Source: Giesbergeria sp. (GTDB lineage Bacteria; Pseudomonadota; Gammaproteobacteria; Burkholderiales; Burkholderiaceae_C). From it: a stretch of DNA of 64,000 nucleotides. A program made the position numbers and the translations under genes. Below the pieces are notes generated by a model. It had not been told where the DNA came from and did no database searches. It saw only the letters and a list, made by a program, of their open reading frames with translations. The stretch covers positions 417,033 to 481,032 of the forward strand of contig JAUCCA010000012.1 of NCBI GenBank assembly GCA_034676525.1, written 5' to 3'. Positions 6,547 through 21,639 of the stretch are shown here, one piece after another (the first letter of the stretch is position 1; every line of letters begins with the position of its first letter).

Positions 6547-7782
6547 TCAGTGCGTCGGCAACCCGTCCAGCTCCTCGCTTGTCGGCTCAGCCTGAGGCTC
6601 ACGATGTCGGCTGGCCAGCCAGGGGGCGGGGGCATGGGCAACCCGGTTGCGTCCTTGGCGCTTGGCCTCGTATAAAGCTTCGTCGGCCCGTGCCAAGGTG
6701 CTCTCAATAGGCTCGCCGCGGTGATGTGTCGTCCAGCCGATGGAGACCGTCATCTGGATTTTCTCCTCGCCCACAACCATCGACGTGTGCTCCAAGCTTC
6801 TGCGCAAGCGCTCAAGCAGTTCCGCCGCATGGGCTTGCCGGGTGTCACACAGCAACAATACGAATTCTTCCCCTCCCCAGCGGGCGAACACATCGCCGCT
6901 GCGCAGTTCACGGCCCACGACCTTCGCAAACAGCTGCAGCGCTCGGTCGCCGGCGTTGTGGCCGTGCTGGTCGTTGATGGCCTTGAAGTGGTCTATGTCG
7001 AGCTGCGCGAGCAGAAGGCTGCGTCCGCTTCGTTCACAGCGAAGCAGTTCCAGCGCCATCAGTTCGGACATCTGCCGTCTGTTGAACAAGCCCGTGAGCT
7101 CATCGCGCATGGCCAATTCGCGAATTTGCACCAGTGCGACCTCCAGCTCACGCTTTTGACCACGCAGACGCGCCCGAATGCTCTGTACCTGTAAGCACAT
7201 CAACGTGCCCGCAAGCAGAGACAACAGCACGATGGTGAGATGGGCTGCCACCACTGCAATGGAAGGCTTTGAAGCCTCAAGGTAAGCGGCGCCGAGCACG
7301 GCAAGCGAATACAGGCCCATCGAGTAGAGCATGAGGAACACCGTCTGGCGCCGGTCGCGCCCGAAGATACCGAACATCAAAATAATGACCAGCACCGGAA
7401 GCACGAGCGCACGAACTGGGCCGGCAATAACGTAGGCGACCGCATTGCACGTCAGTGCCCACTGCATCTGAAACAGCGTCATGGAAGGGTCCGCCATGCG
7501 TTCGCTGTAGCCGCTTCTCACCATGAGCAGCGCAGCAGCCAGCCCACCGACCGCAAACGCCGACCACCAGTTAACCAAGCGCGGATCCATGTCGCCACTG
7601 GCCGCCAGCACCCGCATCGCCAAGGCGCAACACACCATCATCAGAGTGGCCAGCCCGGCCATGGTGGTGCGGCGACGCCGCTTCTCCTCGCTTCCGAGCA
7701 GGCGCGTCAACCACTGCGATGCGGGGGTGGCAGATTGGGGCACGAGACGCGTTAAGGAGAATGGGGAGCGCAGACAAAACAT
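6547..7782 (-). CDS. Membrane-bound diguanylate cyclase
   Basis: Multi-TM N-terminus, DELTGLFNRR, RSGD I-site and RWGGEEF. Start uncertain (7782 or a downstream ATG). Confidence 0.9.
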   Translation of the reverse strand: MFCLRSPFSLTRLVPQSATPASQWLTRLLGSEEKRRRRTTMAGLATLMMVCCALAMRVLAASGDMDPRLVNWWSAFAVGGLAAALLMVRSGYSERMADPSMTLFQMQWALTCNAVAYVIAGPVRALVLPVLVIILMFGIFGRDRRQTVFLMLYSMGLYSLAVLGAAYLEASKPSIAVVAAHLTIVLLSLLAGTLMCLQVQSIRARLRGQKRELEVALVQIRELAMRDELTGLFNRRQMSELMALELLRCERSGRSLLLAQLDIDHFKAINDQHGHNAGDRALQLFAKVVGRELRSGDVFARWGGEEFVLLLCDTRQAHAAELLERLRRSLEHTSMVVGEEKIQMTVSIGWTTHHRGEPIESTLARADEALYEAKRQGRNRVAHAPAPWLASRHREPQAEPTSEELDGLPTH

Positions 7783-7818
7783 AGGGGTCCGCGCATTGTG
7801 GACCCCTATGTTACTTTT
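7772..7818. terminator. Perfect 11-bp hairpin with T-rich tails on both strands
   Basis: CATAGGGGTCC (7780-7790), 9-nt loop, GGACCCCTATG (7800-7810). Followed by TTTTGTCT on minus and TTACTTTT on plus. Confidence 0.6.
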
Positions 7819-7934
7819 CGTGTCAGACAACTGCCCGTCGGCTGGCAGCGCGCGGCGTGCCTGCGCTCCGAATGCGTGCATCGCGCACCTGCGCCACCCG
7901 CATGTTCACTGGTGGGCCTGCGCGCCTTTACTCT

Positions 7935-9872
7935 TTACGCTTTGGTGTCCAGCTCAGAAGCGATGATGGTTGGCGTGTGTGCTGCGGGCACAAACGCATC
8001 CGAGAAGCAGGCACCTTCTGCCAGACCCTGCGCAAGGAAAGCCGGCACAGCCGCGTCCACCATGCGCACGGAGCCACACAGGTACACCTCGTGACCGCTA
8101 AGGTCAGGGAAATCGGCCAGCATGGCTTCGTGGACCAATCCGGTGCGCCCCTTCCACCCATCGCCTTCGACCGACTCAGACACGACAGGCACCACGCTGA
8201 AGTTGCTGTGGTCGCTTTGCCACTGCTCGCAAAGCGCCAGCATGTACAGATCTTTGCTGTCGCGCACGCCCCAGTACAGGCGCATGGGCCGCGTAACGCC
8301 ACGGGCAAAGGCGTCTTCGACAATGCTCTTGATGGGTGCGAAACCCGTCGCGCCGGCAATAAAGAGAATCGGCTGTGCACCGTCGCGCAGCGTGAACTGA
8401 CCGCGCGGTCCTTCAAACTTGATGGTGTCGCCTACCTGCATGCCCTCAAACACGTGCGTGGTAAAGCGCCCACCCGGCACCAGCCGCACATGCAACTCGA
8501 TAAGTGCGTTGTTCTGCGGTGCATTTGCAAAGGAGAAGGCACGGCGCTCGCCGTTGTCCAGCACGATGTCGATGTACTGGCCGGCGTCAAAGGCCAGGCG
8601 ATCTGCGCCGGGGAGTTCAAGACGCAGGCGCATGACGTCTTCCGCCAAATGCTCCATGTGGACCACGCGCGCCTCGTACTGCGGAATTTCAACAGCGCTG
8701 GCGCCTGTAAACCCATCGACCGAAATGACGACGTCGCCGTTGGGCACCGCGCAGCACATCAGTGCCAGGCCGCGCGCCAACTGTGCATCGGACAGTGCCG
8801 CCTTCTGGTAGGGGCGGTGCTCGACCGTGCCCTGCTCCATGGTGCACATGCACAGCCCGCAGGCGCCGTTGCGGCACTCGTACGGCAAAGCAAGGCCGTC
8901 GCGCAGGCCCGCGTCAAGCAGCGTTTCGCCCGGGCGCAAGCTGAACTCAGCAGCGTTGCCGCCCTCGCCGCGCACGGTGGCGTGCAGGGTGCCTTGACCC
9001 TTTCGGCGGGGCTGCGGCCACAGCGGCAACAAGAGCAGGACGACCGTCAACACAGACACCAGCGCCCACACCCGCCCCAGCGGCCACTCGCTCAGCAGCG
9101 GATACAGCGCAAGCAGGAACCAGTCAAGCTTCACGTCCATCACGGCTTTGGCCAAGTCGGCTGCACCGCCTTGGCTCTGAACGGGCGCTACCAATGCCAT
9201 CACCAGAAACGTGACAACCAAGCCAATGATGGTTTCCCGTGGCGGCGTGGTGCGGGCCTTGGGCACCCGCTGCACGTGAATCCACATGACGAGCAGCACG
9301 ACCAGCGGCAGACCAATGTGCAGGAAAGAAAGCAGCGAGAAGAAGCGGTCGCTCACGCTGTCGGCATACACAAAGTTGCGCATCAGCGTGCCGCTAAACG
9401 GCGGCAGCCAGTCGAGCATTTCGAAGCTGGTAACCGTGACGTACTGCGCCAGCGCGTCCCACGGCAGCATGTAGCCATTGATGCCCGAGGCATAGACCAA
9501 CCAGATCAATGCGACCCCGGTGACCCAAGAGAACCAGCGGAAACCGTGGAAAAGATCAAACGCGAAATACCGCAGCATGTGCAGCATCATGGTAAGCACC
9601 ATGGCGTCCGATGCGTAGCGGTGCACGCTGCGCAGGATGCCGCCCAGCCACCACTGACCGTTGGTCAGCGACTCGACGGAATCGTATGCGCCCGAGACAC
9701 CGGTTTCAAAGAACGCATACAAATACAGCCCGGTACCGCCGACGATCCAGAAAAGAAAGAACGTGATCGAACCGAGGTGGTACAGAGGGTTGATGCGATC
9801 GCCAAAGGCACGATTGAACAGCGCCTCAACGCGCATGAACATCCACTGCAGGATCGATTGGAACGCTTTCAT
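7935..9872 (-). CDS. Fusion: cytochrome b (b/b6-type) + [2Fe-2S] ferredoxin + FAD/NAD(P)H reductase (FNR-like)
   Basis: Four heme-b His (SVHRY..MLHML, FLHIG..WIHVQR). CRNGACGLC...MCC ferredoxin. RAFSFAN, GPRGQF, AGATGFAP and YLCGS FNR motifs. Confidence 0.88.
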   Translation of the reverse strand: MKAFQSILQWMFMRVEALFNRAFGDRINPLYHLGSITFFLFWIVGGTGLYLYAFFETGVSGAYDSVESLTNGQWWLGGILRSVHRYASDAMVLTMMLHMLRYFAFDLFHGFRWFSWVTGVALIWLVYASGINGYMLPWDALAQYVTVTSFEMLDWLPPFSGTLMRNFVYADSVSDRFFSLLSFLHIGLPLVVLLVMWIHVQRVPKARTTPPRETIIGLVVTFLVMALVAPVQSQGGAADLAKAVMDVKLDWFLLALYPLLSEWPLGRVWALVSVLTVVLLLLPLWPQPRRKGQGTLHATVRGEGGNAAEFSLRPGETLLDAGLRDGLALPYECRNGACGLCMCTMEQGTVEHRPYQKAALSDAQLARGLALMCCAVPNGDVVISVDGFTGASAVEIPQYEARVVHMEHLAEDVMRLRLELPGADRLAFDAGQYIDIVLDNGERRAFSFANAPQNNALIELHVRLVPGGRFTTHVFEGMQVGDTIKFEGPRGQFTLRDGAQPILFIAGATGFAPIKSIVEDAFARGVTRPMRLYWGVRDSKDLYMLALCEQWQSDHSNFSVVPVVSESVEGDGWKGRTGLVHEAMLADFPDLSGHEVYLCGSVRMVDAAVPAFLAQGLAEGACFSDAFVPAAHTPTIIASELDTKA

Positions 9873-11329
9873 GAAGAAACCACCATTTCGCTGGCAGCGG
9901 GCAGGCCCGCGCCTGGATGGCGACGCATCGCGCGCACTGCCACCACAATGAACAAAACACCACCCACGATGGCAACCAGACCCCCCAGGCCCATCAACGC
10001 CATGCCTGCGACTTCCGCATTGGAGCGCAAGACCTGCTCAGCGCCCGCCACTTTGCGCTGTACGCCGTAGCCGCCCGACCACACCAATCCAACAATGTGC
10101 ATCAGCTGGCCGAGGCCATAAACCCAAGGCTGTGCAACCGCCAAGCGCCCCTTAGGCGCTGCGTATCCGAGGAATGGCAGCAGGTGGTACACGAGCCCCA
10201 TAAGCGCGAGCGTCACACCGACGATGCAGCCGTGGTAGTGCGCAGGGATGCGCACATTGCTGCCGCTGATGAAGATCCCGATCACCCCGCCGGCACCAAA
10301 CAGCAATATCGAAGACAGCACGGCAGCGCGCAGCGGGTGTTGCGTGTCGCGTGTGAGCGGCAAGCGGTACAGCGCCACGACCACCGCCAACGCCACCGGC
10401 ACGATGGCGGTGCCGCCGCCTGCGCGCATCGCCCACGTCAACAGCGCGCGGTGTTCCACCGAGCTGATGTCGTAGGCAAGGTAGGCCCAAGGCGTCACAA
10501 ACACGCCCACCAATGCCAACGCGAACATAAACAAAGTGACACGCGGACTCAGCCGCAAGGTCGCGCCGCAGGCATTCGCCAGCCACAGCCACCCCACCAA
10601 CATGAGCAGCGTCCAGGTGAATTGCAGCGCGTGGCCCCCACCCCAAAACAAAATCTCGTAATACGCTTTGCCGGTCAGCGAGAGCGGCAATTGCACAAAC
10701 GACCAGCCAAACGCGAGGAGCGCGACCACTGTGGCCACCGCTGCCGCGCCCAAGCCAAAGCCCAGCGCACCTCGGCCATCAAACGCCGTACCGAGGCGTG
10801 GCGCGGCCAAGATGCCGCGCAGCGCGAGCACACCGACACCCAGACCAAAAACCACAAGACCACCGAGGAACATCGGTGAGCGCAACACGGGAATGTAATT
10901 GGCCATGATCGGCTCGCCCGCGTTCAGGAAGGGCGCGAGCGTCATGGCGGCTGTGCCGATGGCACAGATCCAAAGCGCAGCCCACCCCCAACGCAGACCC
11001 TGGGCGGTGCCGTACAGACTCCAGAGCAGGCCCGCCATCGCCATGAACCACACGAGGACCGACAGGTCCACATGCAGCACCAAGGAAACATGAAAAAAGT
11101 CGGCTGCAGGTAGCAGCCGGTTTACGCCCGGTGTACGCGAGAGCACCAGCAGAATGGAAAAGAGGCCAGAGCCCACCAGCGCCACTAGGCCAAGCCACAA
11201 CCAGCCTCGTGCCAAGCTGCGGCGCGCATCCTGCGGGACGGCAAGCGAATAGTCTGCCGCGGCTGAGGCGGGCACGGGCCTAGCAGACCCGCCGGCGACA
11301 CCAATGGAAGACGGAGCGACCGCGCTCAT
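9869..11329 (-). CDS. Divergent heme-copper oxidase subunit I-like membrane protein lacking the helix VII His-His pair
   Basis: Multi-TM. LVLHVDLS (helix II His), FWGGGHALQF (helix VI His) and IPAHYHG (helix X HxH) are kept; the HH pair aligns to AY. Confidence 0.75.
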   Translation of the reverse strand: MSAVAPSSIGVAGGSARPVPASAAADYSLAVPQDARRSLARGWLWLGLVALVGSGLFSILLVLSRTPGVNRLLPAADFFHVSLVLHVDLSVLVWFMAMAGLLWSLYGTAQGLRWGWAALWICAIGTAAMTLAPFLNAGEPIMANYIPVLRSPMFLGGLVVFGLGVGVLALRGILAAPRLGTAFDGRGALGFGLGAAAVATVVALLAFGWSFVQLPLSLTGKAYYEILFWGGGHALQFTWTLLMLVGWLWLANACGATLRLSPRVTLFMFALALVGVFVTPWAYLAYDISSVEHRALLTWAMRAGGGTAIVPVALAVVVALYRLPLTRDTQHPLRAAVLSSILLFGAGGVIGIFISGSNVRIPAHYHGCIVGVTLALMGLVYHLLPFLGYAAPKGRLAVAQPWVYGLGQLMHIVGLVWSGGYGVQRKVAGAEQVLRSNAEVAGMALMGLGGLVAIVGGVLFIVVAVRAMRRHPGAGLPAASEMVVSS

Positions 11330-11829
11330 AGCAACACGATGCCTCCGCGTTCGGCATCGAAGTCAATGACCAGCACTTGTGAAGGTTTGAGATTCACAGT
11401 CGCTTCGTGCTGGTGGTTAAACCCGTCGGTCGCGTTGGTGTCGCGCATACGCACCGTAATGCGGTGCGTGCCAGCGCCGACCTCCAGGCGCTTGTAGACA
11501 GTGGAAGCACCATCGCGCGAGAGCCCTGACGGTGCGGCGGTGTGGCGATAGGCAGGCTTACCGTCGATGTCGAGCTCCACCGTCACGGAAGCACGTTCGC
11601 GCTCGCACTTGAGTGGCGCGCGCATGTTGGGCGCCAACTTGGCGAGCTCCTCTGCCGTATAGGGGCGGCACTCTGCAACGCGCTGCCCGTGGTGGACGAA
11701 GCTCAGCTTGATGAGCGCCTCATCCGCCGCGAGCGGCGAGAACGCTGGCCACTGCGAAAAAACGCCTACCAGCAGCGCAAAACTGCCGTACAGCAGTGCT
11801 TGGCCTGCGAGGACGAAAACGCGATTCAT
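11326..11829 (-). CDS. Membrane-anchored hypothetical protein (one TM, beta-rich soluble domain, 2 Cys)
   Basis: 4-nt overlaps with both neighbours; N-terminal hydrophobic helix; HHG and C..C motifs. Confidence 0.8.
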   Translation of the reverse strand: MNRVFVLAGQALLYGSFALLVGVFSQWPAFSPLAADEALIKLSFVHHGQRVAECRPYTAEELAKLAPNMRAPLKCERERASVTVELDIDGKPAYRHTAAPSGLSRDGASTVYKRLEVGAGTHRITVRMRDTNATDGFNHQHEATVNLKPSQVLVIDFDAERGGIVLL

Positions 11830-13490
11830 GCAAAAGACTCCGAATGGACAAAAGATTCTGCCGTGCGCACGCGCAGGGCCTTGAGCGCGGCCGCGAGCGC
11901 GGCCTCATCACCAGCATCGACGGCAACCAGCGACCAAGCTTCCTTCGGTACGCTGGCACGCAGGCGTGGCTCACGTTGACCGTTAAGACGCTCGCGCGTC
12001 CAGCGCTCACCCAGCCGAAATTCGCAGCCGCCTTCACGACAAGTCGCCACCAGCACGCCAGTGGCGCCTGCACGCAAGGCGTATTCAAGAAACGATGGCG
12101 GCAGCAAACCTGTGCACACCAGCGGCAGCGTCAAGACATCGTCCGCGGCAACCCCGGCCAGCTGCGCGCCTTGCGCACAGCCAAACACCACAAAGCGCTG
12201 AGACCCTGAAAGTGCCGCAAGACCAGCCAGCATCTGCTGGCGCAATGCATCAATCGGCCATTGCGGCATGTCGATACCAGTATGCAGCACCTGCGCGCTG
12301 CGAAACGGCGTGGACGATGGGCAAGAGCCCACGCAAATGCCGCAACTGGCACACAAGTCGCTGCGCACCTGCGCCAGCTCCATGCCCACACGGCCGTTGG
12401 GATGCGGCACCATGGTGATCGCCGCGTAAGGGCAGTCTTCGACGCAGCGCCGGCAGCCGCTGCAGTGGTCGGGGTTGACCTCAGCGACCGCTTGCTCCAG
12501 CGCCAGTGGACGCCACGCGGTATGCGAAGTGGCGGGTGCGCCCAAATTTGACAGAAGCGCCGGCGCTACTGCCAACGCGGGGCGGCGACGCAGACCCAAC
12601 CATGGCAAAGCCACAAGCACAGCCATCACCAGCCCGAGCAGGCCCCACACCGCTCCCGCGGATGTGGCTGCGGTCAGGGGATGGATGAAAAGCAGCCACC
12701 AGTCGTACGCCAGCGCTTGCGGCACGGTGCTCAAGTCTGCGGGACCCTGACTGCGCACTGGCAAGAAGGCCGCGAGCATAAGCATGGCCAATAGCGTGCC
12801 AATTGCCAGCGTGCGCGGCGGGAACACTGAAGCGCGACTAATGCGCTGCACGTGGAACCACAAACCAAACACCAGCAAAAGGGGCACGCCCAAGTGCACA
12901 AAGACGAACAGCGAGAACAGCCGGTCGTTCAACTGCGTGCCACTCAGAAAATTGCGCGCCAGCGGCGAGGCCAGCCCGGGCAGTACATCAAGCCACTCGG
13001 CTGTCGCTGTGGCGGAAAACTGCCCGAGGCGGTCCCAGTTCAGCCAGAAGCCGCCAATCGCAGAAACGAAAAGGAGCGGCAGCAGCGGGACGCCCGTCAG
13101 CCAAGACGCTGCGCGAAAACTCCGAAATCGCCCCAACATCCATTCGCGCAGCACGTGCGCCAGCACCACCACGACCATGGCGTCGGCGCTGTAGCGGTGC
13201 AGGCCGCGCAGCAGGCTGCCCCACTGCCTAGGCTCGCGCGACAACGCATCAATTGATTGGTAGGCGCCACTGGCTGAGGTGTCGAGCACGGCATACAGAA
13301 TCACTCCGCTGAACACCAGAAGCCACAGCAACCAGAAACCCAGCGCACCCAGATGCTTGAGAGGATTGCCACTGACTCCCGCCAGTGCGTCGAATCCGTG
13401 CTCGCACGCGCGCCAAAGCCTTGCCGACGCGTGCGGCGCCACCGCAATGGGGAGCGAACTGGAAGAGGCAGCCATATGCGGCGAATTCAC
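11826..13490 (-). CDS. Fusion: cytochrome b + 2x[4Fe-4S] ferredoxin + MvhD/FlpD-like [2Fe-2S] domain
   Basis: Four heme His (GLHRY..LAHVL, FVHLG..WFHVQR). CSGCRRCVEDCP and CASCGICVGSCP. C-terminal VFGC...VCTG...GATGVLVATCREGGCEF matches the MvhD pattern. Confidence 0.85.
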   Translation of the reverse strand: MNSPHMAASSSSLPIAVAPHASARLWRACEHGFDALAGVSGNPLKHLGALGFWLLWLLVFSGVILYAVLDTSASGAYQSIDALSREPRQWGSLLRGLHRYSADAMVVVVLAHVLREWMLGRFRSFRAASWLTGVPLLPLLFVSAIGGFWLNWDRLGQFSATATAEWLDVLPGLASPLARNFLSGTQLNDRLFSLFVFVHLGVPLLLVFGLWFHVQRISRASVFPPRTLAIGTLLAMLMLAAFLPVRSQGPADLSTVPQALAYDWWLLFIHPLTAATSAGAVWGLLGLVMAVLVALPWLGLRRRPALAVAPALLSNLGAPATSHTAWRPLALEQAVAEVNPDHCSGCRRCVEDCPYAAITMVPHPNGRVGMELAQVRSDLCASCGICVGSCPSSTPFRSAQVLHTGIDMPQWPIDALRQQMLAGLAALSGSQRFVVFGCAQGAQLAGVAADDVLTLPLVCTGLLPPSFLEYALRAGATGVLVATCREGGCEFRLGERWTRERLNGQREPRLRASVPKEAWSLVAVDAGDEAALAAALKALRVRTAESFVHSESFA

Positions 13491-14347
13491 ATTCGGCGAG
13501 GTCGCCCACGGTTGCGCCGACTCGCCCGCAATTCATTGATGAAGAACACGATCATGACAATGAAAAAAGTGATGCCACCTGCCACCTGGATCGGTAAGGT
13601 GTAGTCCGCTCGGTACTCGCCTGTCTTGATGTCGTACACCGTGCACACGAGGCGAATGCGCTCGAACAGCGTGTCGAGCACGCGGTCATGGAAAACAGGA
13701 GAGCCAGCCAGAAGCAGCCGAAGGGGTTCGCCCAGATCGGCGGCATTGAGTTGCTCGCCATAGATTTGCCGCACGATGCGGCCTTGCGAATCCACCAGGC
13801 TGAGCTGCAGAACGTGGTCAAAACCGGCAGGCGTAGATTTGTACAAAAAACCAAAATCGCGCGTCAACGCCGGCACGTCTGCCGCGCGGGGGCTAAGGAA
13901 TTCCCAGTTGTCTCTGCCGATACGAAACTGCGCGGCAAATGCCTTGAGCGCTTCTGGAGAATCCTCTGGCTGGTTAAAGCCAATACTCACGACATTGAAT
14001 TGGCCCGGGCCGACACTCTTTTGCAATGCGTCGACGGCAATCTGCAGCGCACGCGTTGTGCCGGGACAGATTTGGAAACAACCGGTGTAGATGAAGCTCA
14101 CCAGCAGGGGTTTGCCGCGATAGCTTGAAAGCGACACCGTGCGGCCCGAGCGGTCGCGGAACAAATGCTCGCCCAGCTCCCTCCCGACTGCGTCTTCGCT
14201 CGCGCGCAATGCGAGGCGCGCGTCAAGCCCGAGCGTGGCGGCCTGCTCAGAGCCGTGCGTGATCGCTTGCGCGGGCAGCGACAGCAGGCATGCCCACCCC
14301 ACCACCCACACCAGCACCAGGGCAGTCAGGGAGCGGGATCGACACAT
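13487..14347 (-). CDS. SCO1/SenC-family copper chaperone
   Basis: FIYTGCFQICP (CxxxC), FDHVL His, thioredoxin-like fold and C-terminal TM. Confidence 0.9.
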   Translation of the reverse strand: MCRSRSLTALVLVWVVGWACLLSLPAQAITHGSEQAATLGLDARLALRASEDAVGRELGEHLFRDRSGRTVSLSSYRGKPLLVSFIYTGCFQICPGTTRALQIAVDALQKSVGPGQFNVVSIGFNQPEDSPEALKAFAAQFRIGRDNWEFLSPRAADVPALTRDFGFLYKSTPAGFDHVLQLSLVDSQGRIVRQIYGEQLNAADLGEPLRLLLAGSPVFHDRVLDTLFERIRLVCTVYDIKTGEYRADYTLPIQVAGGITFFIVMIVFFINELRASRRNRGRPRRM

Positions 14348-14360
14348 AGCAAACTCTCGT

Positions 14361-15260
14361 TCAACGGATCAGGCCGTCCACACAGGCGGCCACGAGCAAG
14401 GTGCTCAATTGGATCAAAGAGGCAAAAAACGCCGACATCGCGTGCGCACGCGTCACTTCGCGCGCCAGCACCCAAGATTTGTACACAAAATGCGCACCGC
14501 CGAAGAATGCGCCAACGGCATACACAGGGCCTGCGCCGTAGAACACAGGAAGCAAAGACGCCACCAACAGTGCGACGGTGCTGACGAACACAATGTGCGC
14601 TGCCCGCTCGTTGCCTACCACCACCGGCAACATTGGCACACCGGCTTGCGCATAGTCGGCGCGGTTGGCAATCGCCAGCGCCCAAAAGTGCGGCGGCGTC
14701 CAGAGAAACAGCACCAACGCAAGCAGCATCGGCAGCGGCCCCAGCGCAGGATCGACTGCCGCGGCGCCTGCCAACACGGCAAAACTGCCGGCCAAGCCGC
14801 CAATCACGATGTTCATGGAGCTGCGGCGCTTGAGCCACACCGTATACACAAAAGCGTAGAAGAAAGCGCCAAGAAACACATAGACGGCAGCAGCGCCGTT
14901 GAGCACCAACCACGCCGCTGCCACCGACCCCACGAGCATGGCGGCCATCAGCACCAACCACGCGGGGTGGTGTGGCAGCGCGCCGGTGACAAAAGCACGC
15001 CGACGCGTGCGCGCCATTAGATGGTCGCTGTTGTGTTCAAAGTACTGATTGAACGCGCCTGCACTGGCGGAAGCCACCAACACAGACAGCGCCAACACCA
15101 GCACCTGAAGCCAGCTGGGCGCTGGGCCAGGTGTTACCACCATGCCCACCAGCGCCGTCACCATGATGAGCGAGCCTATGCGCAGCTTGAACAACGAGAT
15201 GACGTCGCGCGTGCGCTGCACGGCCAGGCTGCGCGCGGGTTGAATCGTGTCGGTGCCCAT
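14361..15260 (-). CDS. ctaB: Protoheme IX farnesyltransferase (heme o synthase)
   Basis: LFKLRI, NQYFEHNSDHLMARTRRR, YTVWLKRR and LWTPPHFWAL. Start at ATG 15260. Confidence 0.92.
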   Translation of the reverse strand: MGTDTIQPARSLAVQRTRDVISLFKLRIGSLIMVTALVGMVVTPGPAPSWLQVLVLALSVLVASASAGAFNQYFEHNSDHLMARTRRRAFVTGALPHHPAWLVLMAAMLVGSVAAAWLVLNGAAAVYVFLGAFFYAFVYTVWLKRRSSMNIVIGGLAGSFAVLAGAAAVDPALGPLPMLLALVLFLWTPPHFWALAIANRADYAQAGVPMLPVVVGNERAAHIVFVSTVALLVASLLPVFYGAGPVYAVGAFFGGAHFVYKSWVLAREVTRAHAMSAFFASLIQLSTLLVAACVDGLIR

Positions 15261-15274
15261 GGCTTGGCTTTCTT

Positions 15275-17002
15275 TCAGGACATGCCCCACAGCTGGGCGA
15301 GGTACTTCCAGTTGATGAAGTAGTACAGCACGAATGCCACCAGGAACACCATGGCCAGCACGAAGCTTCCAGGTGCTACCAAGCCAGCCGACCCGTAAGT
15401 CTGCGCAGCCGCTGTACGTGCAGTCGGTGGAATCGGCGTGAAGCGTGGACTCACAACACCTTGATCGAGCTTCTTGCCCCACAGCAACGAACCGACCGTG
15501 ATGTAGATGTACAGAGCGCCGCCGGCGATGGCCGCCATACCGCCAATACCTACGAGGCCCATCATCAGATAGGCAGCGCCTGGCCATTCATACGCCAGTG
15601 CCGCGCCGCTGAACGCCATGTCCCAGTGCCTGCGCGAGACGCCCAAGGTGCCGGCACCCATCATGACCAAGCAGAAGAAGTACATCGAGAAACCGAAGAG
15701 GTAAGGCTGAATTTTTGCCAGCCCCGGAGAGATGGTTTCGCGCTTGAACAGCACTGGAATCAGGTAGTACGTGAGCGCCATGAACGTCAGCGTCGTGCCG
15801 ACCACCACAGTTGCATGGAAGTGACCAGGCACATAAATGGTGTTGTGAATGATCAGGTTGAGCTGCTCGGTACCCATCATGACGCCCGAAATACCGCCCA
15901 GGAAGCCAAAGCCGACGATGGAGATGAACACACCTGAGAACGTCGGGTTGCCCCAAGGCGCTTTGCGCAGCCACTCAAACAGGCCCTTGTTGTAGCCCTT
16001 GGCGCGTTGCGCCACTTCCATGGCACCGGGAACGGTCAAGCCGTGGATCATCGAAGCCAACACAGCGAAATACATGAAGTAGCTGGTGTTAACGATTTTC
16101 CACTCGGTACTCACACCCGGGTCGGCAAGCAGGTGGTGCGCACTAGCAAGCTGCAAAAACAAGATGTAAAGCAGGAAGGCGCCGCGACTGACGCGCTCGG
16201 ACATGGGCTTGGCGCCAAAACAAACCGCAGCTACCAGGTACCAGATCGAGATGTGCGCCGCTACGTTAATCTGCTGCGACGAGTGACCGAAGGCCCACCA
16301 GATGGTCCGGTAGATCAGCGGGTCGACGTTGTCGATCAGGCCAAGCGCCAGAAGATAGGTGGGGATCAGGATGATCGCGCCAGAGACGATGGTGAACACT
16401 GCAATGATGGCCGCAACGATGGCGCCGAACGTCACCAGCGGCACCGAGCCCTGATAGGTCTTGTCGCGCTTGGCTACCACCAGCGTGCCAAAGAACACGA
16501 AGCAAGCGATCAATGCGCCGACCGCAAAGAGGATCAGACCCAGGTAAAACCAAGGCGTGGCCATCATGGGCACATAAGACGTCATCATCACGCTGGAGCC
16601 GCCGCGGAACACGTCGATGTTGTTCATGACGGCGCCGACCAGCATGAGCGCGTAGGCCAACCATGCCATTTTGGGCGTGGCGATTCGACAGCGCAGCAGC
16701 GTTGAGGCACAGAAATACAGCACCGCGACCTCAAAGAAGATCATCCAGAAGATGAGCATGTTGATGCCGTGCGCGGTAAGCACCAGATAGAACGTGTCGG
16801 CGGCCAGCCAGTGCACGGCGGGCCAGCGCGTCAGCACCACGCCGATGGCGAGGATGCCGCCAACGAGCAAGGCGACCACAGCGGTCACCGCGTTGAAGAT
16901 CATCAGACGTTCGGCGCTGCGTTCGAACTGAAGGCCCGAACGCGGGCAAGTACGGTAGGTGGTGGCGCTGCCTGAGGCGAGCGCAGCAGAAGTTGCGGCC
17001 AT
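15275..17002 (-). CDS. Heme-copper oxidoreductase subunit I, B-family-derived, eNOR-type nitric oxide reductase
   Basis: All six His present (TAHG, GHSSQQIN, SAHH, GHFH). The H+4 Tyr of O2 reductases is Gln (codon 16271-16273). No cytochrome c subunit; partner is a CuA subunit II. Confidence 0.82.
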   Translation of the reverse strand: MAATSAALASGSATTYRTCPRSGLQFERSAERLMIFNAVTAVVALLVGGILAIGVVLTRWPAVHWLAADTFYLVLTAHGINMLIFWMIFFEVAVLYFCASTLLRCRIATPKMAWLAYALMLVGAVMNNIDVFRGGSSVMMTSYVPMMATPWFYLGLILFAVGALIACFVFFGTLVVAKRDKTYQGSVPLVTFGAIVAAIIAVFTIVSGAIILIPTYLLALGLIDNVDPLIYRTIWWAFGHSSQQINVAAHISIWYLVAAVCFGAKPMSERVSRGAFLLYILFLQLASAHHLLADPGVSTEWKIVNTSYFMYFAVLASMIHGLTVPGAMEVAQRAKGYNKGLFEWLRKAPWGNPTFSGVFISIVGFGFLGGISGVMMGTEQLNLIIHNTIYVPGHFHATVVVGTTLTFMALTYYLIPVLFKRETISPGLAKIQPYLFGFSMYFFCLVMMGAGTLGVSRRHWDMAFSGAALAYEWPGAAYLMMGLVGIGGMAAIAGGALYIYITVGSLLWGKKLDQGVVSPRFTPIPPTARTAAAQTYGSAGLVAPGSFVLAMVFLVAFVLYYFINWKYLAQLWGMS

Positions 17003-17573: not shown

Positions 17574-17729
17574 TTACTTGGCCATGGGAATGGTCAAGAT
17601 TTCGATCACCCCCCACAGTGAGTACACGACCATCGGGACCATCACCCCGATGAACAGTAACAAAAAAGGGTTGTCGAGCAGCTGCTGAATCATCGGCACC
17701 TTCTCGTTTTCGTCGTTATCGTGTTCCAT
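17574..17729 (-). CDS. Small single-TM protein (subunit IIa-like), 51 aa
   Basis: GAGGAG RBS before ATG 17729; one hydrophobic helix; first gene of the operon. Confidence 0.75.
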   Translation of the reverse strand: MEHDNDENEKVPMIQQLLDNPFLLLFIGVMVPMVVYSLWGVIEILTIPMAK

Positions 17730-17788: not shown

Positions 17789-17802
17789 TTGATCTGCGAC
17801 AA
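17789..17802 (-). promoter_or_regulatory. FNR/DNR/NnrR-type box
   Basis: TTGATCTGCGACAA versus consensus TTGAT-N4-ATCAA (2 mismatches). Centred about 41 nt upstream of a start inferred from a GACAAT -10-like hexamer (17767-17762). Confidence 0.65.
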
Positions 17803-17894: not shown

Positions 17895-18860
17895 ATGCAC
17901 GCACCTTCCTCCCCTGACCCCGCGCCGCATCGGCGCCTTTTTTTGCGCCGTGCGGCCTGGATTTGTGCTGTTTTGGTGCTGGTGGTGACAAGCGCCAGCG
18001 CTTTTTTGCGTCAATCTGGCGCCGGTCTGGGTTGCACACCGTGGCCCGCCTGCCACGCCAGCGCGGCGCGCGCCGACGTCGAACGCCCTGCGCCCAGCGC
18101 GGCTGAGCACACGGCTCGCGCCGTGCACCGAGTCGTCGCTTCGTCCTTATTGCTTCTGCTGATGGCCATGACGGCCTTTGCCTGGACAGGCAAGCCGCGG
18201 TTGGCGGTAGAAGGGCGCGTGGTCTTGGTGGCCCTCGGGCTGGTGCTGTTCCTTGCGGTGCTTGGCGTCTTCACTGCCAAGGCTCGCGCGCCAGCGATCA
18301 CCCTTGGCAATCTGTTGGGAGGCCTGCTGCTGTTTGCCGCGTGTGTCCGGCTCGCCGTTACCGCGTGTGCCATCGCCGAACCGCAGCGCAAACACCTGCA
18401 GCGCTGGGCGCTCGTGTCCGGCACCCTGTTGCTCGTGCAGATCGGTTTGGGCGCACTGATCAGCGCCGGGTATGCAGGGTTGAGCTGCCCCGAGCTAAGC
18501 AGCTGCAGCCCAGGCGCCCATGCTTGGGAAGCGTTGAGCCTGCTTCACCCACCCGGAGATGGGGCTGGAATGCCCGGTTATGCGGAGGGCGTTGGCATCC
18601 AACTCCTGCACCGCCTCGCGGCGTTGGCAGTGATGGTGGCGCTTGCAGCATTGGCAAGGTCCGCGTGGCAGGCCCGGCGGCGAGTCGAGGCGGCTGCGCT
18701 CGGGGTGCTCGCTGTACTTCAAGTGGGTTTGGGTGCGACGCTGGTGCTCAGTCAATTGCCGCTGGGCGCAGCGCTTGCGCACAACCTGGTTGCCGCGCTG
18801 CTGCTGGGAACGGTGGCGGCACTCATCGCAGCATCCGCGCGGGTGTCGCCTCGGTTGTGA
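17895..18860 (+). CDS. ctaA: Heme A synthase (CtaA/COX15 family)
   Basis: SGAGLGCTPWPAC, HRVVA, AGLSCPELSSC, HRLAA and AHNL; 8-TM pattern; divergent from the oxidase operon. Confidence 0.82.
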   Translation: MHAPSSPDPAPHRRLFLRRAAWICAVLVLVVTSASAFLRQSGAGLGCTPWPACHASAARADVERPAPSAAEHTARAVHRVVASSLLLLLMAMTAFAWTGKPRLAVEGRVVLVALGLVLFLAVLGVFTAKARAPAITLGNLLGGLLLFAACVRLAVTACAIAEPQRKHLQRWALVSGTLLLVQIGLGALISAGYAGLSCPELSSCSPGAHAWEALSLLHPPGDGAGMPGYAEGVGIQLLHRLAALAVMVALAALARSAWQARRRVEAAALGVLAVLQVGLGATLVLSQLPLGAALAHNLVAALLLGTVAALIAASARVSPRL

Positions 18861-20273: not shown

Positions 20274-21461
20274 TCAGGTCTCGACGTGTTCGTGTGCACT
20301 CCTGAGCACGCCGCGCGGCTCCGCAATCAGCTCGGCCCACTTGCTGTCGCCGTGCAGGGCCACTCGGTCGCGGCCGTGCGCCTTGGCTTCGTAGAGGGCC
20401 TGGTCTGCCTGCTCGAGCATCTGCTCAAGTGCTTGACCCGGCCGACCGGCGGCCAAGCCCGCCGACACTGTGATGCGAACGATGCCGGAGATGGTTTGAA
20501 CTTCCAACGCGGCGACTTCCACGCGTACTCGCTCCAACATCTTTAGCGCGCCGTCCACGGAAGTTTCGGGCAGCAACAGCAAGAATTCTTCACCTCCCCA
20601 ACGCGCCAGCAGGTCGGTACTGCGCAAATTAGCCTGCACACATTGCGCGAAATTACGCAGCACGGCGTCGCCTGCAGCGTGACCGTGGCGGTCGTTAACG
20701 AGCTTGAAAAGATCGATATCCAGCAGAGCCAACACCAGCGGTCGGCCTCCGCGAGCGCAGCGCTCGCGCTCTAGGTCCACGACCTCTGTCATGCGGCGCC
20801 GGTTCAACAGACCGGTCAACTCGTCGTGCGTCGCGAGGTGGTTGATGCGCTCAAGCGCAGCGCCCAGCGCATGTTTCTGGAACTTCAGTCTGCGGCGCAC
20901 ATGTTGAATGCGCACGCCAACGAAGGTGCTTCCCGCCAGCACCAGCACGATCATCACGCCATAGGCGAACTCCAACATGCTGTTGTAGCCGGGCGCGTGG
21001 ACCCAGGCCACGATTCCCATGGCGACCCCGAAGGATGTAAGCGCAAACAGCAGGTTGGCCGCCAACTCCCGCGCGCTGAGGCTGAAGATGCCGAACATCA
21101 GGACCAGCGAGAGGATGACTGGGGTGATGCCGCGCGCGTCGCCCAGCAATGCGTAGCCTGCCGCATTGCTCAAAATGGCGTATCGAATCTGGACCAGGGT
21201 CATAGCGGGGTCGGCCATTGCACGGGTCCAGCCCGCGCGGATGCAGGTGATCGCTGCCGCATTGAACAGCACAGTGGTCGAGATCCAGATCATCACCTGC
21301 TGGACGCTGGCAAAGCCCGCATAGGCCAGCAGAAGGGCCAGCGATCCGCACAGGACGGACAGCAAAGCAGACGCCCCCGTCATCGCCACGCGAATGCGCA
21401 TGTGCGGGTCGCTGCCCAAAAGCCGCTGCATCAGCGCGCTGCGCTTCACGCCAATGGCCAT
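20274..21461 (-). CDS. Membrane-bound diguanylate cyclase, paralogue of 6547-7782
   Basis: HDELTGLLNRR, RSTD I-site and RWGGEEF; same TM architecture. Start uncertain. Confidence 0.9.
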   Translation of the reverse strand: MAIGVKRSALMQRLLGSDPHMRIRVAMTGASALLSVLCGSLALLLAYAGFASVQQVMIWISTTVLFNAAAITCIRAGWTRAMADPAMTLVQIRYAILSNAAGYALLGDARGITPVILSLVLMFGIFSLSARELAANLLFALTSFGVAMGIVAWVHAPGYNSMLEFAYGVMIVLVLAGSTFVGVRIQHVRRRLKFQKHALGAALERINHLATHDELTGLLNRRRMTEVVDLERERCARGGRPLVLALLDIDLFKLVNDRHGHAAGDAVLRNFAQCVQANLRSTDLLARWGGEEFLLLLPETSVDGALKMLERVRVEVAALEVQTISGIVRITVSAGLAAGRPGQALEQMLEQADQALYEAKAHGRDRVALHGDSKWAELIAEPRGVLRSAHEHVET

Positions 21462-21639
21462 GCAATGCCTTTCGTTGAAATCCGGTTGTACCGCCGACGC
21501 GCCTTTGCGAGGAAGGCGGCCCATTCTATGGATGCGCCATTTTGGTGCAAGGCCTGGCCTTTCGACCGATAGGTGCATCTGTCCACCAATTGGGGGGTAT
21601 CGCAGCACGCTTGTAGAACAGCCAGAGTGACAGTAAGAT

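What the first reader, a model, noticed from the sequence alone, without database searches (positions are those of the whole stretch)
11826..13490. MvhD/FlpD domain on a cytochrome b, with no hydrogenase or Hdr nearby
Seen: 2x[4Fe-4S] followed by FGC...VCTG...GATGVLVATCREGGC. Established: this ferredoxin-plus-MvhD tandem forms the C-terminus of HdrA-MvhD fusions and QmoB in methanogens and sulfate reducers, where it serves flavin-based bifurcation or confurcation. Inference: a module from anaerobe energy metabolism has been recruited to an NO-respiration operon. Its soluble partner is unknown and may be the FNR domain of the second cyt b.
Basis: partly seen in the sequence, partly recalled or inferred. 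Interest (0 to 1): 0.72.

Follow-up and report, generated by a model that had tools for sequence, protein, structure and literature searches.

The report
Cytochrome b-FeS-MvhD partner of eNOR
This gene encodes a real membrane cytochrome b fused to three cytoplasmic iron-sulfur clusters; the fusion type was first noted in 2014, is found only alongside one kind of nitric-oxide reductase (eNOR), and has never had its function tested.

Summary
ORF 11826-13490 (-) encodes 554 aa: a bc1-type dihaem cytochrome b with six helices, two [4Fe-4S] motifs, and an MvhD/FlpD domain (Pfam 38.3 bits against a cut-off of 22.3). Four haem His, eight Cys and four FlpD Cys are conserved across representatives at 50% identity or less.

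The genome has no [NiFe] hydrogenase, no HdrA and no second FlpD.

The gene sits in a nine-gene operon:
- eNOR small subunit, subunit II (CuA) and subunit I (Tyr->Gln, GHSSQQ)
- CtaB and SCO1
- this gene
- a 167-aa membrane protein
- a haem-copper-oxidase-like (HCO-like) protein lacking two copper (CuB) ligands
- a paralogous cytochrome b-ferredoxin-FNR fusion

In 401 Burkholderiales genomes, all 45 carriers of the FeS-FlpD module also carry eNOR. An FNR/DNR-type box lies upstream in 47 of 58 related operons. The genome has nirS but no cNOR or qNOR.

The fusion was described in 2014 (PDWF-FeS clade). A 2026 preprint noted both cytochrome b fusions in an eNOR operon. So this is a new member of a known, uncharacterised kind.

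Most likely it is a Rieske-less transmembrane electron wire serving eNOR, probably paired with its FNR paralogue. Flavin-based bifurcation is not supported, because the MvhD residues that hand electrons to the HdrA flavin are absent. The direction of electron flow is unresolved.

The parts
11826..13490 (-). The finding: cytochrome b + 2x[4Fe-4S] + MvhD/FlpD fusion protein (554 aa, GTG start overlapping the SCO1 stop)
   Evidence: AlphaFold2 model: mean pLDDT 84, pTM 0.84. Best fold matches are bc1 cytochrome b chains.
12591..13418 (-). Cytochrome b module (residues ~25-300): six helices, haem ligands H98/H112 and H199/H213 (13 residues between each pair, the bc1 spacing), Qo-type motif Y262-D263-W264-W265
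   Evidence: Pfam PF00033 and PF13631. Haem His conservation. D263 invariant. Hydropathy and model helices. Motif named in PMC4122944.
12306..12488 (-). Two [4Fe-4S] motifs (C343/346/349/353 and C380/383/386/390), cytoplasmic
   Evidence: Fer4 family hits. All eight Cys kept in 30 of 30 representatives. An even helix count puts this part in the cytoplasm.
11871..12197 (-). MvhD/FlpD-like domain (residues ~432-540), predicted [2Fe-2S] ligands C438, C459, C484, C489
   Evidence: PF02662 at 38.3 bits. Alignment to MvhD chains with C42/C67/C72 matching C459/C484/C489. Conservation.
11326..11829 (-). 167-aa partner protein (p167): N-terminal membrane helix plus beta-sandwich, start overlaps the stop of the finding
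   Evidence: No Pfam or NCBIfam hit. Present beside the fusion in 51 of 51 full loci. AlphaFold2 pLDDT 91, no significant PDB fold match. Invariant C54 and C75.
9869..11329 (-). HCO-like protein (486 aa) with both haem sites kept and the CuB His-His pair replaced
   Evidence: PF00115 at 41.9 bits. 25% identity to eNOR subunit I over the full length. In 60 orthologues H86, H233, H364 and H366 are invariant, and HH is replaced by A/I plus invariant Y283.
7935..9872 (-). Paralogous cytochrome b fused to a [2Fe-2S] ferredoxin and an FAD/NAD(P)H reductase (645 aa)
   Evidence: Pfam Cytochrome_B, Fer2, FAD_binding_6, NAD_binding_1. BenC-like. Its cytochrome b part is 41% identical to that of the finding. 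The paralogue clade is monophyletic.
13487..14347 (-). SCO1/SenC copper chaperone
   Evidence: PF02630
14361..15260 (-). Haem o synthase CtaB (299 aa from Met110 of the longer ORF)
   Evidence: TIGR01473 at 260 bits. Orthologues are 299 aa.
15275..17002 (-). eNOR subunit I (575 aa): the cross-link Tyr is replaced by Gln (GHSSQQ); HH and HxH are kept
   Evidence: PF00115 at 214.6 bits. Alignment to Aquifex ba3, GHPVVY against GHSSQQ. Gln is the eNOR criterion in PMC8756737.
17018..17557 (-). eNOR subunit II with the CuA motif CNEFCGINHHTM
17574..17729 (-). 51-aa single-helix protein, first gene of the operon (position of a ba3 subunit IIa)
   Evidence: Read from the sequence. A 51-aa gene occupies the same place in relatives.
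17789..17802 (-). FNR/DNR/NNR-type box TTGTCGCAGATCAA, about 66 nt upstream of the first start codon
   Evidence: A box of this type is found in 47 of 58 related loci against 0.136 expected per 300 nt.
17895..18860 (+). Haem a synthase CtaA, divergently transcribed
   Evidence: PF02628 at 109 bits
7778..7812 (.). Perfect 16-bp hairpin about 120 nt after the last operon gene, the probable operon end

Best explanation
The protein is a Rieske-less, bc1-type dihaem cytochrome b. Its last two helices are replaced by a cytoplasmic three-cluster wire: two [4Fe-4S] clusters and one MvhD-type [2Fe-2S] cluster. It is an accessory subunit of the eNOR nitric-oxide reductase system, expressed from the same low-oxygen/NO-regulated operon.

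It most likely forms a cytochrome b dimer with its FNR-bearing paralogue, plus the 167-aa protein. The dimer would carry electrons across the membrane between cytoplasmic redox centres and the periplasmic side, where the Qo-type pocket and the CuA site of eNOR lie.

My preferred direction is outward. NAD(P)H would be oxidised on the paralogue's FNR module, and a second, unidentified cytoplasmic reductant on the FlpD cluster. Electrons would pass through FeS, haem bH and haem bL to eNOR, giving NO reduction a supply independent of bc1 and cytochrome c.

Shown: the architecture, the ligand conservation, the cytoplasmic position of the FeS domains, the exclusive linkage to eNOR, and the paralogy. 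Inferred: complex formation, the heterodimer, and the direction of flow. I put about 0.85 on the general 'eNOR-linked transmembrane electron wire' and about 0.45-0.5 on the outward direction.
For: Architecture and ligands.

Six helices place the FeS part in the cytoplasm. The fold matches bc1 cytochrome b.

Linkage to eNOR:
- Same nine-gene cluster in Alicycliphilus and Simplicispira.
- eNOR beside the gene in 48 of 51 full loci.
- All 45 carriers among 401 Burkholderiales genomes also carry eNOR, against 5 eNOR carriers among the 356 genomes without the module.
- Distant loci with 28-31% identity also sit next to Gln-type HCOs.

Overlapping start and stop codons couple the fusion, p167, the HCO-like gene and the FNR fusion.

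Paralogy: 41% identity. The FNR clade arose once, and a second independent duplication is seen in L095. This fits a selected cytochrome b pair.

Regulation: FNR/DNR-type box in 47 of 58 operons.

The genome has nirS and no cNOR or qNOR.

The outward direction rests on family precedent. BenC-, NqrF-, Hmp- and LuxG-type Fer2-FAD-NAD modules (NCBIfam matches) all oxidise NAD(P)H. That precedent is established knowledge, not a test.

The proteins were detected in the Ferrigenium proteome under denitrifying conditions (preprint 10.64898/2026.01.22.701106).
Against: - No experiment exists for any member of the family.
- R. marinus eNOR purified as an active NO reductase with artificial donors (PMC11214002), and 5 of 50 eNOR genomes lack the module. 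The module is therefore not needed for catalysis.
- The invariant Asp of the xDWF motif points to a working quinol pocket, which a simple outward wire does not need.
- A canonical bc1 complex is present and could feed eNOR through cytochrome c.
- In some Accumulibacter loci the module lies away from eNOR (L056, L065, L079).
- The FlpD form occurs without the FNR paralogue, so its cytoplasmic partner is unknown.
Confidence: 0.5

Rival explanations
1. Quinone-based (Qo-type) bifurcation running inward. Quinol is oxidised in the Qo-type pocket. The strongly oxidising eNOR takes the first electron. The second, low-potential electron passes through haem bL, haem bH, the [4Fe-4S] clusters and the FlpD cluster to the paralogue's flavin and reduces NAD(P)+. 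This would make a quinol:NAD(P)+ oxidoreductase driven by NO reduction.
For: - Invariant D263 and a conserved cd-loop WD motif suggest a functional quinol site.
- The whole Qo region is retained, as noted in PMC4122944.
- The Ferrigenium preprint proposes this model. Carriers include lithoautotrophs that need reverse electron flow.
- MvhD-type clusters are known to feed a flavin (PMC13580544).
Against: - There is no Rieske protein or other high-potential acceptor in the operon. p167 has no conserved metal ligands.
- Most carriers are heterotrophs with no need to make NADH uphill.
- The electron would move against the membrane potential and uphill to -320 mV.
- The MvhD hand-off residues are missing.
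- The FlpD form exists without any FNR partner.
Confidence: 0.2
2. Cofactor-maturation reductase. The two cytochrome b fusions carry NAD(P)H-derived electrons to the outer face of the membrane for eNOR assembly. Possible uses are electrons for the O2-dependent haem a synthase CtaA, or keeping SCO1 and copper reduced for CuA insertion.
For: - The operon is otherwise rich in maturation genes: CtaB and SCO1, with CtaA next door.
- eNOR uses modified haem a in both sites (PMC11214002).
- Mitochondrial Cox15 needs a ferredoxin and a ferredoxin reductase (established knowledge).
- Purified eNOR is active without these proteins.
Against: - A-family oxidases in the same order also need haem a and copper, yet none of the 351 genomes without eNOR carries the module.
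- Tight translational coupling to an HCO-like protein with conserved haem ligands suggests a respiratory complex rather than a chaperone system.
Confidence: 0.1
3. NarI/NarH-like redox loop. Quinol is oxidised at the periplasmic pocket. Both electrons run inward through the two haems and three FeS clusters to an unidentified cytoplasmic acceptor, generating proton-motive force.
For: The layout matches a dihaem cytochrome b plus an FeS chain, with the quinol site on the outer side and the clusters inside.
Against: - No cytoplasmic reductase with a high-potential substrate is encoded in the operon.
- This does not explain the exclusive tie to eNOR, whose electron entry site is periplasmic.
Confidence: 0.07
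4. One reading: a flavin-based bifurcating or confurcating module of the Hdr/Qmo kind working in an NO-respiration operon.
For: The Fer4+FlpD tandem is collinear with the HdrA2 C-terminus. A flavoprotein domain (FNR) is encoded in the same operon.
Against: - The genome has no HdrA, no hydrogenase and no second FlpD.
- MvhD Cys16, His68 and Asp71 are absent (PMC13580544).
- BenC-type FNR modules are not known to bifurcate.
- Both one-electron branches would end in similar b haems.
Confidence: 0.03

Closest known systems
'PDWF-FeS' clade of cytochrome b (Kao & Hunte 2014, Genome Biol Evol, PMC4122944)
   Same: [quoted passage not shown] They share an xDWF Qo motif and have no Rieske gene in the cluster. 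The window's cluster is syntenic with that of A. denitrificans.
   Different: That paper only catalogued the clade. It did not link it to eNOR, to the 167-aa partner or to the HCO-like gene. The motif here is YDWW rather than PDWF.
Cytochrome b-[Fe-S] and cytochrome b-[Fe-S]-FAD-NADH genes of the Ferrigenium straubiae eNOR operon (bioRxiv 10.64898/2026.01.22.701106)
   Same: Both cytochrome b fusions lie in an operon with eNOR II, eNOR I, haem o synthase and sco1. The proteins were detected under denitrifying conditions.
   Different: The gene order differs. The authors propose a quinol:NAD+ oxidoreductase. The MvhD-type domain, the p167 partner and the paralogue phylogeny are not discussed in the passages I read.
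MvhD, and the C-terminus of HdrA2 (Fer4 + MvhD fusion), of methanogens
   Same: Homologous domains in the same order (NCBIfam NF040770, positions 565-765). Three cluster Cys align with identical spacings of 24 and 4 residues.
   Different: There is no hydrogenase or HdrA partner. The N-terminal CxxC is reduced to one Cys. His68 and Asp71 are replaced by Arg and Gly. The domain is anchored to a membrane cytochrome b.
Cytochrome b of bc1 / b6f complexes
   Same: Four haem His with bc1 spacing, helices A-F, the cd-loop WD motif and the ef-loop Qo motif. The best fold matches are bc1 cytochrome b chains.
   Different: There is no Rieske or cytochrome c1 partner. Helices G and H are replaced by FeS domains. 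No Qi-site His, Ser or Asp pattern was recognised.
NarI-NarH, and NOX/FRE-type transmembrane reductases (functional analogues only)
   Same: These are dihaem membrane cytochromes b wired to a cytoplasmic FeS chain (Nar) or to an FAD/NAD(P)H module (NOX, FRE) to move electrons across the membrane.
   Different: The cytochrome b folds are unrelated, so this is an analogy and not membership. The resemblance is recalled from knowledge and was not tested here.

Membership tests
MvhD/FlpD (PF02662) | Profile match above the curated cut-off | tested here: met
   38.3 bits against 22.3; 41.8 bits in the genome scan
MvhD/FlpD (PF02662) | Four Cys able to bind one [2Fe-2S] cluster | tested here: met
   C459, C484 and C489 align to MvhD C42, C67 and C72. 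C438 follows the first strand where MvhD has its N-terminal Cys; that alignment is by eye. The four are kept in 25-29 of 30 representatives.
MvhD/FlpD (PF02662) | Works with a [NiFe] hydrogenase (MvhAG) and/or HdrA | tested here: not met
   No PF00374 hit and no HdrA in the 99.99%-complete genome
MvhD/FlpD (PF02662) | Residues between the cluster and the HdrA flavin (Cys16, His68, Asp71 of M. marburgensis MvhD) | tested here: not met
   Single Cys instead of CxxC; Arg485 and Gly488 at the His68 and Asp71 positions (numbering from PMC13580544)
Cytochrome b of Rieske/cytochrome b complexes | Four bis-His haem ligands on helices B and D | tested here: met
   H98/H112 and H199/H213, kept in 29-30 of 30
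Cytochrome b of Rieske/cytochrome b complexes | Qo motif (PEWY and its variants) in the ef loop | tested here: met
   YDWW at 262-265, family consensus xDWF, D263 invariant
Cytochrome b of Rieske/cytochrome b complexes | Rieske iron-sulfur partner encoded with it | tested here: not met
   No Rieske domain in the operon proteins. All five genomic Rieske hits lie on another contig, one of them beside the canonical cytochrome b.
PDWF-FeS clade (Kao & Hunte 2014) | Cytochrome b with an xDWF-type motif fused to a non-Rieske FeS domain, no Rieske in the cluster | tested here: met
   The cluster is syntenic with that of A. denitrificans, a named member species.
eNOR (for the neighbouring subunit I, 15275-17002) | Gln in place of the cross-linked Tyr, with three His metal ligands kept | tested here: met
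   GHSSQQ against GHPVVY of Aquifex ba3; HH and HxH present. The criterion is from PMC8756737.
eNOR (for the neighbouring subunit I, 15275-17002) | CuA-bearing subunit II and haem a biosynthesis genes | tested here: met
   CNEFCGINHHTM; CtaB and CtaA
eNOR (for the neighbouring subunit I, 15275-17002) | NO reductase activity without O2 reductase activity | not testable with these tools
   Shown only for the R. marinus enzyme (PMC11214002)
Flavin-based electron-bifurcating complexes (Hdr/Qmo type) | A bifurcating flavoprotein (HdrA/QmoA-B type) with high- and low-potential branches | tested here: not met
   No HdrA-like protein in the genome. The only flavin module is BenC-type FNR. QmoB itself was not searched.

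The most novel reading that the evidence does not exclude
The four translationally coupled genes (cytochrome b-FeS-FlpD, p167, the HCO-like protein, cytochrome b-Fdx-FNR) build a self-contained, Rieske-less heterodimeric cytochrome b complex that performs quinone-based bifurcation. NO reduction, by eNOR or at the altered His/Tyr site of the HCO-like protein, pulls one electron from quinol. The other electron is driven through the b haems, the [4Fe-4S] clusters and the MvhD-type cluster to the paralogue's flavin to make NAD(P)H. This would be a new way of coupling denitrification to reverse electron flow.
Probability: 0.15. Interest if true: 0.85.

Novelty: new member of a known kind. Interest (0 to 1): 0.45.

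Why it matters
eNOR is reported to be among the commonest nitric-oxide reductases in nature. It occurs in wastewater phosphorus removers and in iron-oxidising denitrifiers, and it makes the greenhouse gas N2O (PMC11214002).

How eNOR gets its electrons in vivo is unknown. In about 90% of eNOR-bearing Burkholderiales sampled here, the enzyme comes with this cytochrome b-FeS module.

If the module links NAD(P)H or quinol directly to eNOR, that would change the energy budget assumed for this branch of denitrification. It would also provide a marker gene set.

It is also the only known setting in which an MvhD-type domain works without a hydrogenase or Hdr, and in which a bc-type cytochrome b works without a Rieske protein. 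That makes it a good test case for how these modules are reused.

For this window itself the result is modest. It holds one more member of a family that has been catalogued but never characterised.

Tried and rejected
- I searched the large protein database with the FlpD domain alone to obtain stand-alone MvhD sequences for a ligand alignment. It returned only fragments of this same family. The N-terminal Cys alignment therefore rests on PDB alignments plus residue numbers from PMC13580544.
- A sequence search of the HCO-like protein against PDB found nothing.
- The fold search with the p167 model gave only generic beta-sandwich matches, all with E above 0.01. There is no cupredoxin or Rieske likeness to report.
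- Model coordinates are not given to the Python box, so distances between clusters and haems could not be measured.
- I considered that the two 444-aa GGDEF genes flanking the cluster mark a recent duplication or insertion. They are only 40% identical, so I rejected this.
- I considered that the divergent CcoN-like gene elsewhere in the genome could be a cNOR. Its best solved relatives are cbb3 oxidases, so I rejected this.
- Literature searches for functional or expression data on this fusion found only the 2014 catalogue and the 2026 preprint.
Full report
**What is there**

- Pfam finds a cytochrome b N-terminal domain (residues 47-215, E 6.7e-17), a dicluster ferredoxin (342-392) and FlpD (450-538, 38.3 bits against a cut-off of 22.3).
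- NCBIfam aligns residues 329-540 collinearly to positions 565-765 of 777 of HdrA2.
- Solved MvhD chains align to the last domain (9sw2_D E 9e-6).
- Hydropathy and an AlphaFold2 model (pLDDT 84, pTM 0.84) give six membrane helices, so everything after residue ~300 is cytoplasmic.
- The best structural matches are cytochrome b chains of bc1 complexes.

**Conservation**

A full HMMER scan of 1.84 billion representatives found 398 clusters at E below 1e-30.

In 30 full-length representatives at 50% identity or less:
- the four haem His (98, 112, 199, 213) are kept in 29-30
- the eight [4Fe-4S] Cys are kept in all 30
- the four Cys of the FlpD domain (438, 459, 484, 489) are kept in 28, 27, 29 and 25

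The ef-loop motif is YDWW, the family consensus is xDWF, and Asp263 is invariant.

**Comparison with MvhD**

Residue numbers come from the M. marburgensis structure paper (PMC13580544) and the alignment.
- MvhD Cys42, Cys67 and Cys72 match Cys459, Cys484 and Cys489, with identical spacing.
- The N-terminal CxxC is reduced to a single Cys438.
- Cys16, His68 and Asp71 sit between the MvhD cluster and the HdrA flavin. They are missing here; Arg485 and Gly488 stand at the last two positions.
- The domain probably still binds a [2Fe-2S] cluster, but it lacks the surface used with HdrA.

**Genome context of hydrogenase and Hdr**

The genome (4.07 Mb, 99.99% complete) has one FlpD hit, which is this gene. 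It has no [NiFe] hydrogenase large subunit. It has no HdrA; the best hit to the HdrA2 model is this gene's own tail.

A canonical bc1 complex lies elsewhere, with its Rieske gene beside the cytochrome b gene. No Rieske gene is near the operon.

**The operon**

On the minus strand from 17729 to 7935 lie, in order:
- a 51-aa single-helix protein
- a CuA subunit II (CNEFCGINHHTM)
- an HCO subunit I
- haem o synthase
- SCO1
- the finding
- a 167-aa protein (p167)
- a divergent HCO-like protein
- a second cytochrome b fused to a [2Fe-2S] ferredoxin and an FAD/NAD(P)H reductase

The last four genes overlap start to stop. Haem a synthase is transcribed divergently.

Subunit I aligns GHSSQQ against GHPVVY of Aquifex ba3. 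The cross-link Tyr is Gln, which is the published signature of eNOR.

The genome has a cd1 nitrite reductase. Its other haem-copper enzymes are an A-type oxidase (by its PF00115 score only; not checked further), a cbb3 oxidase and a cbb3-like protein. No cNOR or qNOR was found. 'NO-respiration operon' is therefore a fair description.

**Linkage tested**

- The same nine genes occur in Alicycliphilus denitrificans and Simplicispira suum.
- Of 80 genome loci fetched with a family alignment, 51 have enough flank. Among those, eNOR subunit I is present in 48, p167 in 51, the HCO-like gene in 44 and the FNR fusion in 47.
- All 48 eNOR genes in which a motif search located the active-site helix show GHSSQQ; in 19 further loci it was not found.
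- In an even sample of 401 Burkholderiales genomes, 45 carry the FeS-FlpD part and 50 carry eNOR. All 45 are among the 50.
- Two distant loci, with 28-31% identity to the finding, also sit next to Gln-type enzymes (GHQSQQ, GHSAQQ).
- Exceptions: three Accumulibacter loci keep the module away from eNOR, and five eNOR genomes lack the module.

**Regulation**

A box TTGTCGCAGATCAA lies about 66 nt upstream of the first start codon (17789-17802). A box within two mismatches of TTGAT-N4-ATCAA is found in the same 300-nt region in 47 of 58 related loci. The background rate is 0.136 per 300 nt. This places the operon under an FNR/DNR/NNR-type regulator, as expected for denitrification genes.

**Paralogy**

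The two cytochrome b parts in the window are 41% identical.

In a tree of 69 cytochrome b domains, the FNR-linked copies form one clade (100/97) set among FlpD-linked copies. The internal branching roughly parallels that of their partners. A distant locus (L095) has an independent duplication that gives two FlpD-type copies, each followed by a p167-like gene.

Cytochrome b of bc complexes is a dimer (established knowledge). Two independent duplications kept in one operon suggest a selected heterodimer. This is inference.

**The neighbours**

- p167 models confidently (pLDDT 91) as one membrane helix plus a beta-sandwich, with two invariant Cys and no metal-binding pattern. It has no significant fold match.
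- The HCO-like protein keeps the haem ligands (H86, H364, H366) and one CuB His (H233) in all 60 orthologues.
- In that protein the His-His pair is replaced by A/I plus an invariant Tyr283. Asp88, Glu225, His293 and His411 are also invariant.

**Literature**

- Kao & Hunte (2014, PMC4122944) listed exactly these fusions, including the A. denitrificans FNR form, as the 'PDWF-FeS' clade.
- A 2026 preprint on Ferrigenium straubiae noted both fusions in its eNOR operon, found the proteins in a proteome, and proposed a quinol:NAD+ oxidoreductase.
- Earlier notes of this scan pointed to both sources. I read both and re-tested the eNOR linkage independently.
- No functional study was found.

**Mechanism**

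Shown: a bc-type dihaem cytochrome b with a retained Qo-type loop, wired on the cytoplasmic side to three FeS clusters, encoded with eNOR, without Rieske, hydrogenase or Hdr.

Inferred: it forms a dimer with the FNR paralogue and moves electrons across the membrane for eNOR.

I favour outward flow from NAD(P)H, because every characterised relative of the Fer2-FAD-NAD module oxidises NAD(P)H. The invariant Asp of the Qo motif keeps the inward, quinone-bifurcating model alive at about 0.2. A maturation role gets about 0.1, a Nar-like redox loop about 0.07, and flavin-based bifurcation about 0.03.

**Verdict**

- This is a new member of a known but uncharacterised kind.
- Interest is moderate.

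Noticed in passing
window 9869-11329 (-): An HCO-like protein family keeps both haem sites and one CuB His. The His-His pair is replaced by A/I plus an invariant Tyr283. Asp88, Glu225, His293 and His411 are also invariant in 60 orthologues. It has no PDB sequence relative. It may be a catalytic subunit with an altered metal site rather than a scaffold.
   Followed up: partly
window 11326-11829 (-): A 167-aa protein with no family assignment is the only gene found beside the fusion in all 51 full loci. It is predicted as one membrane helix plus a beta-sandwich, with two invariant Cys and no metal motif.
   Followed up: partly
window 17789-17802: An FNR/DNR/NNR-type box lies upstream of the operon. 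A box of this type is conserved at the same place in 47 of 58 related operons.
   Followed up: yes
window 7778-7812: A perfect 16-bp inverted repeat with a 3-nt loop lies about 120 nt after the last operon gene. It falls inside the long ORF call of the next GGDEF gene, whose true start is probably further downstream.
   Followed up: no
window 6547-7881 (-) and 20274-21608 (-): Two 444-aa membrane GGDEF diguanylate cyclases, 40% identical, flank the eNOR cluster. A GGDEF gene also lies upstream of the cluster in Simplicispira suum.
   Followed up: partly
L095 3634-8019: A distant relative has two tandem pairs of cytochrome b-FeS-FlpD plus a p167-like gene after eNOR and SCO1. It has no FNR paralogue and no HCO-like gene. 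This is an independent duplication.
   Followed up: partly
L056, L065, L079 (Accumulibacter): The module (fusion, p167, FNR fusion) lies more than 10 kb from any eNOR gene in these loci, so it can be inherited as a separate unit.
   Followed up: no
G000:C8:2632250-2633488 (L097 222-1874, -): A 550-aa CcoN-like protein scores far below the ccoN cut-off (257 against 583 bits) and has an N-terminal extension of about 95 residues. Its best solved relatives are cbb3 oxidases. It is a second, divergent C-family enzyme in the same genome.
   Followed up: partly
window 14361-15587 (-): The longest ORF for haem o synthase (408 aa) overlaps the end of eNOR subunit I. Orthologues are 299 aa, so the true start is probably Met110 at 15260.
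   Followed up: partly
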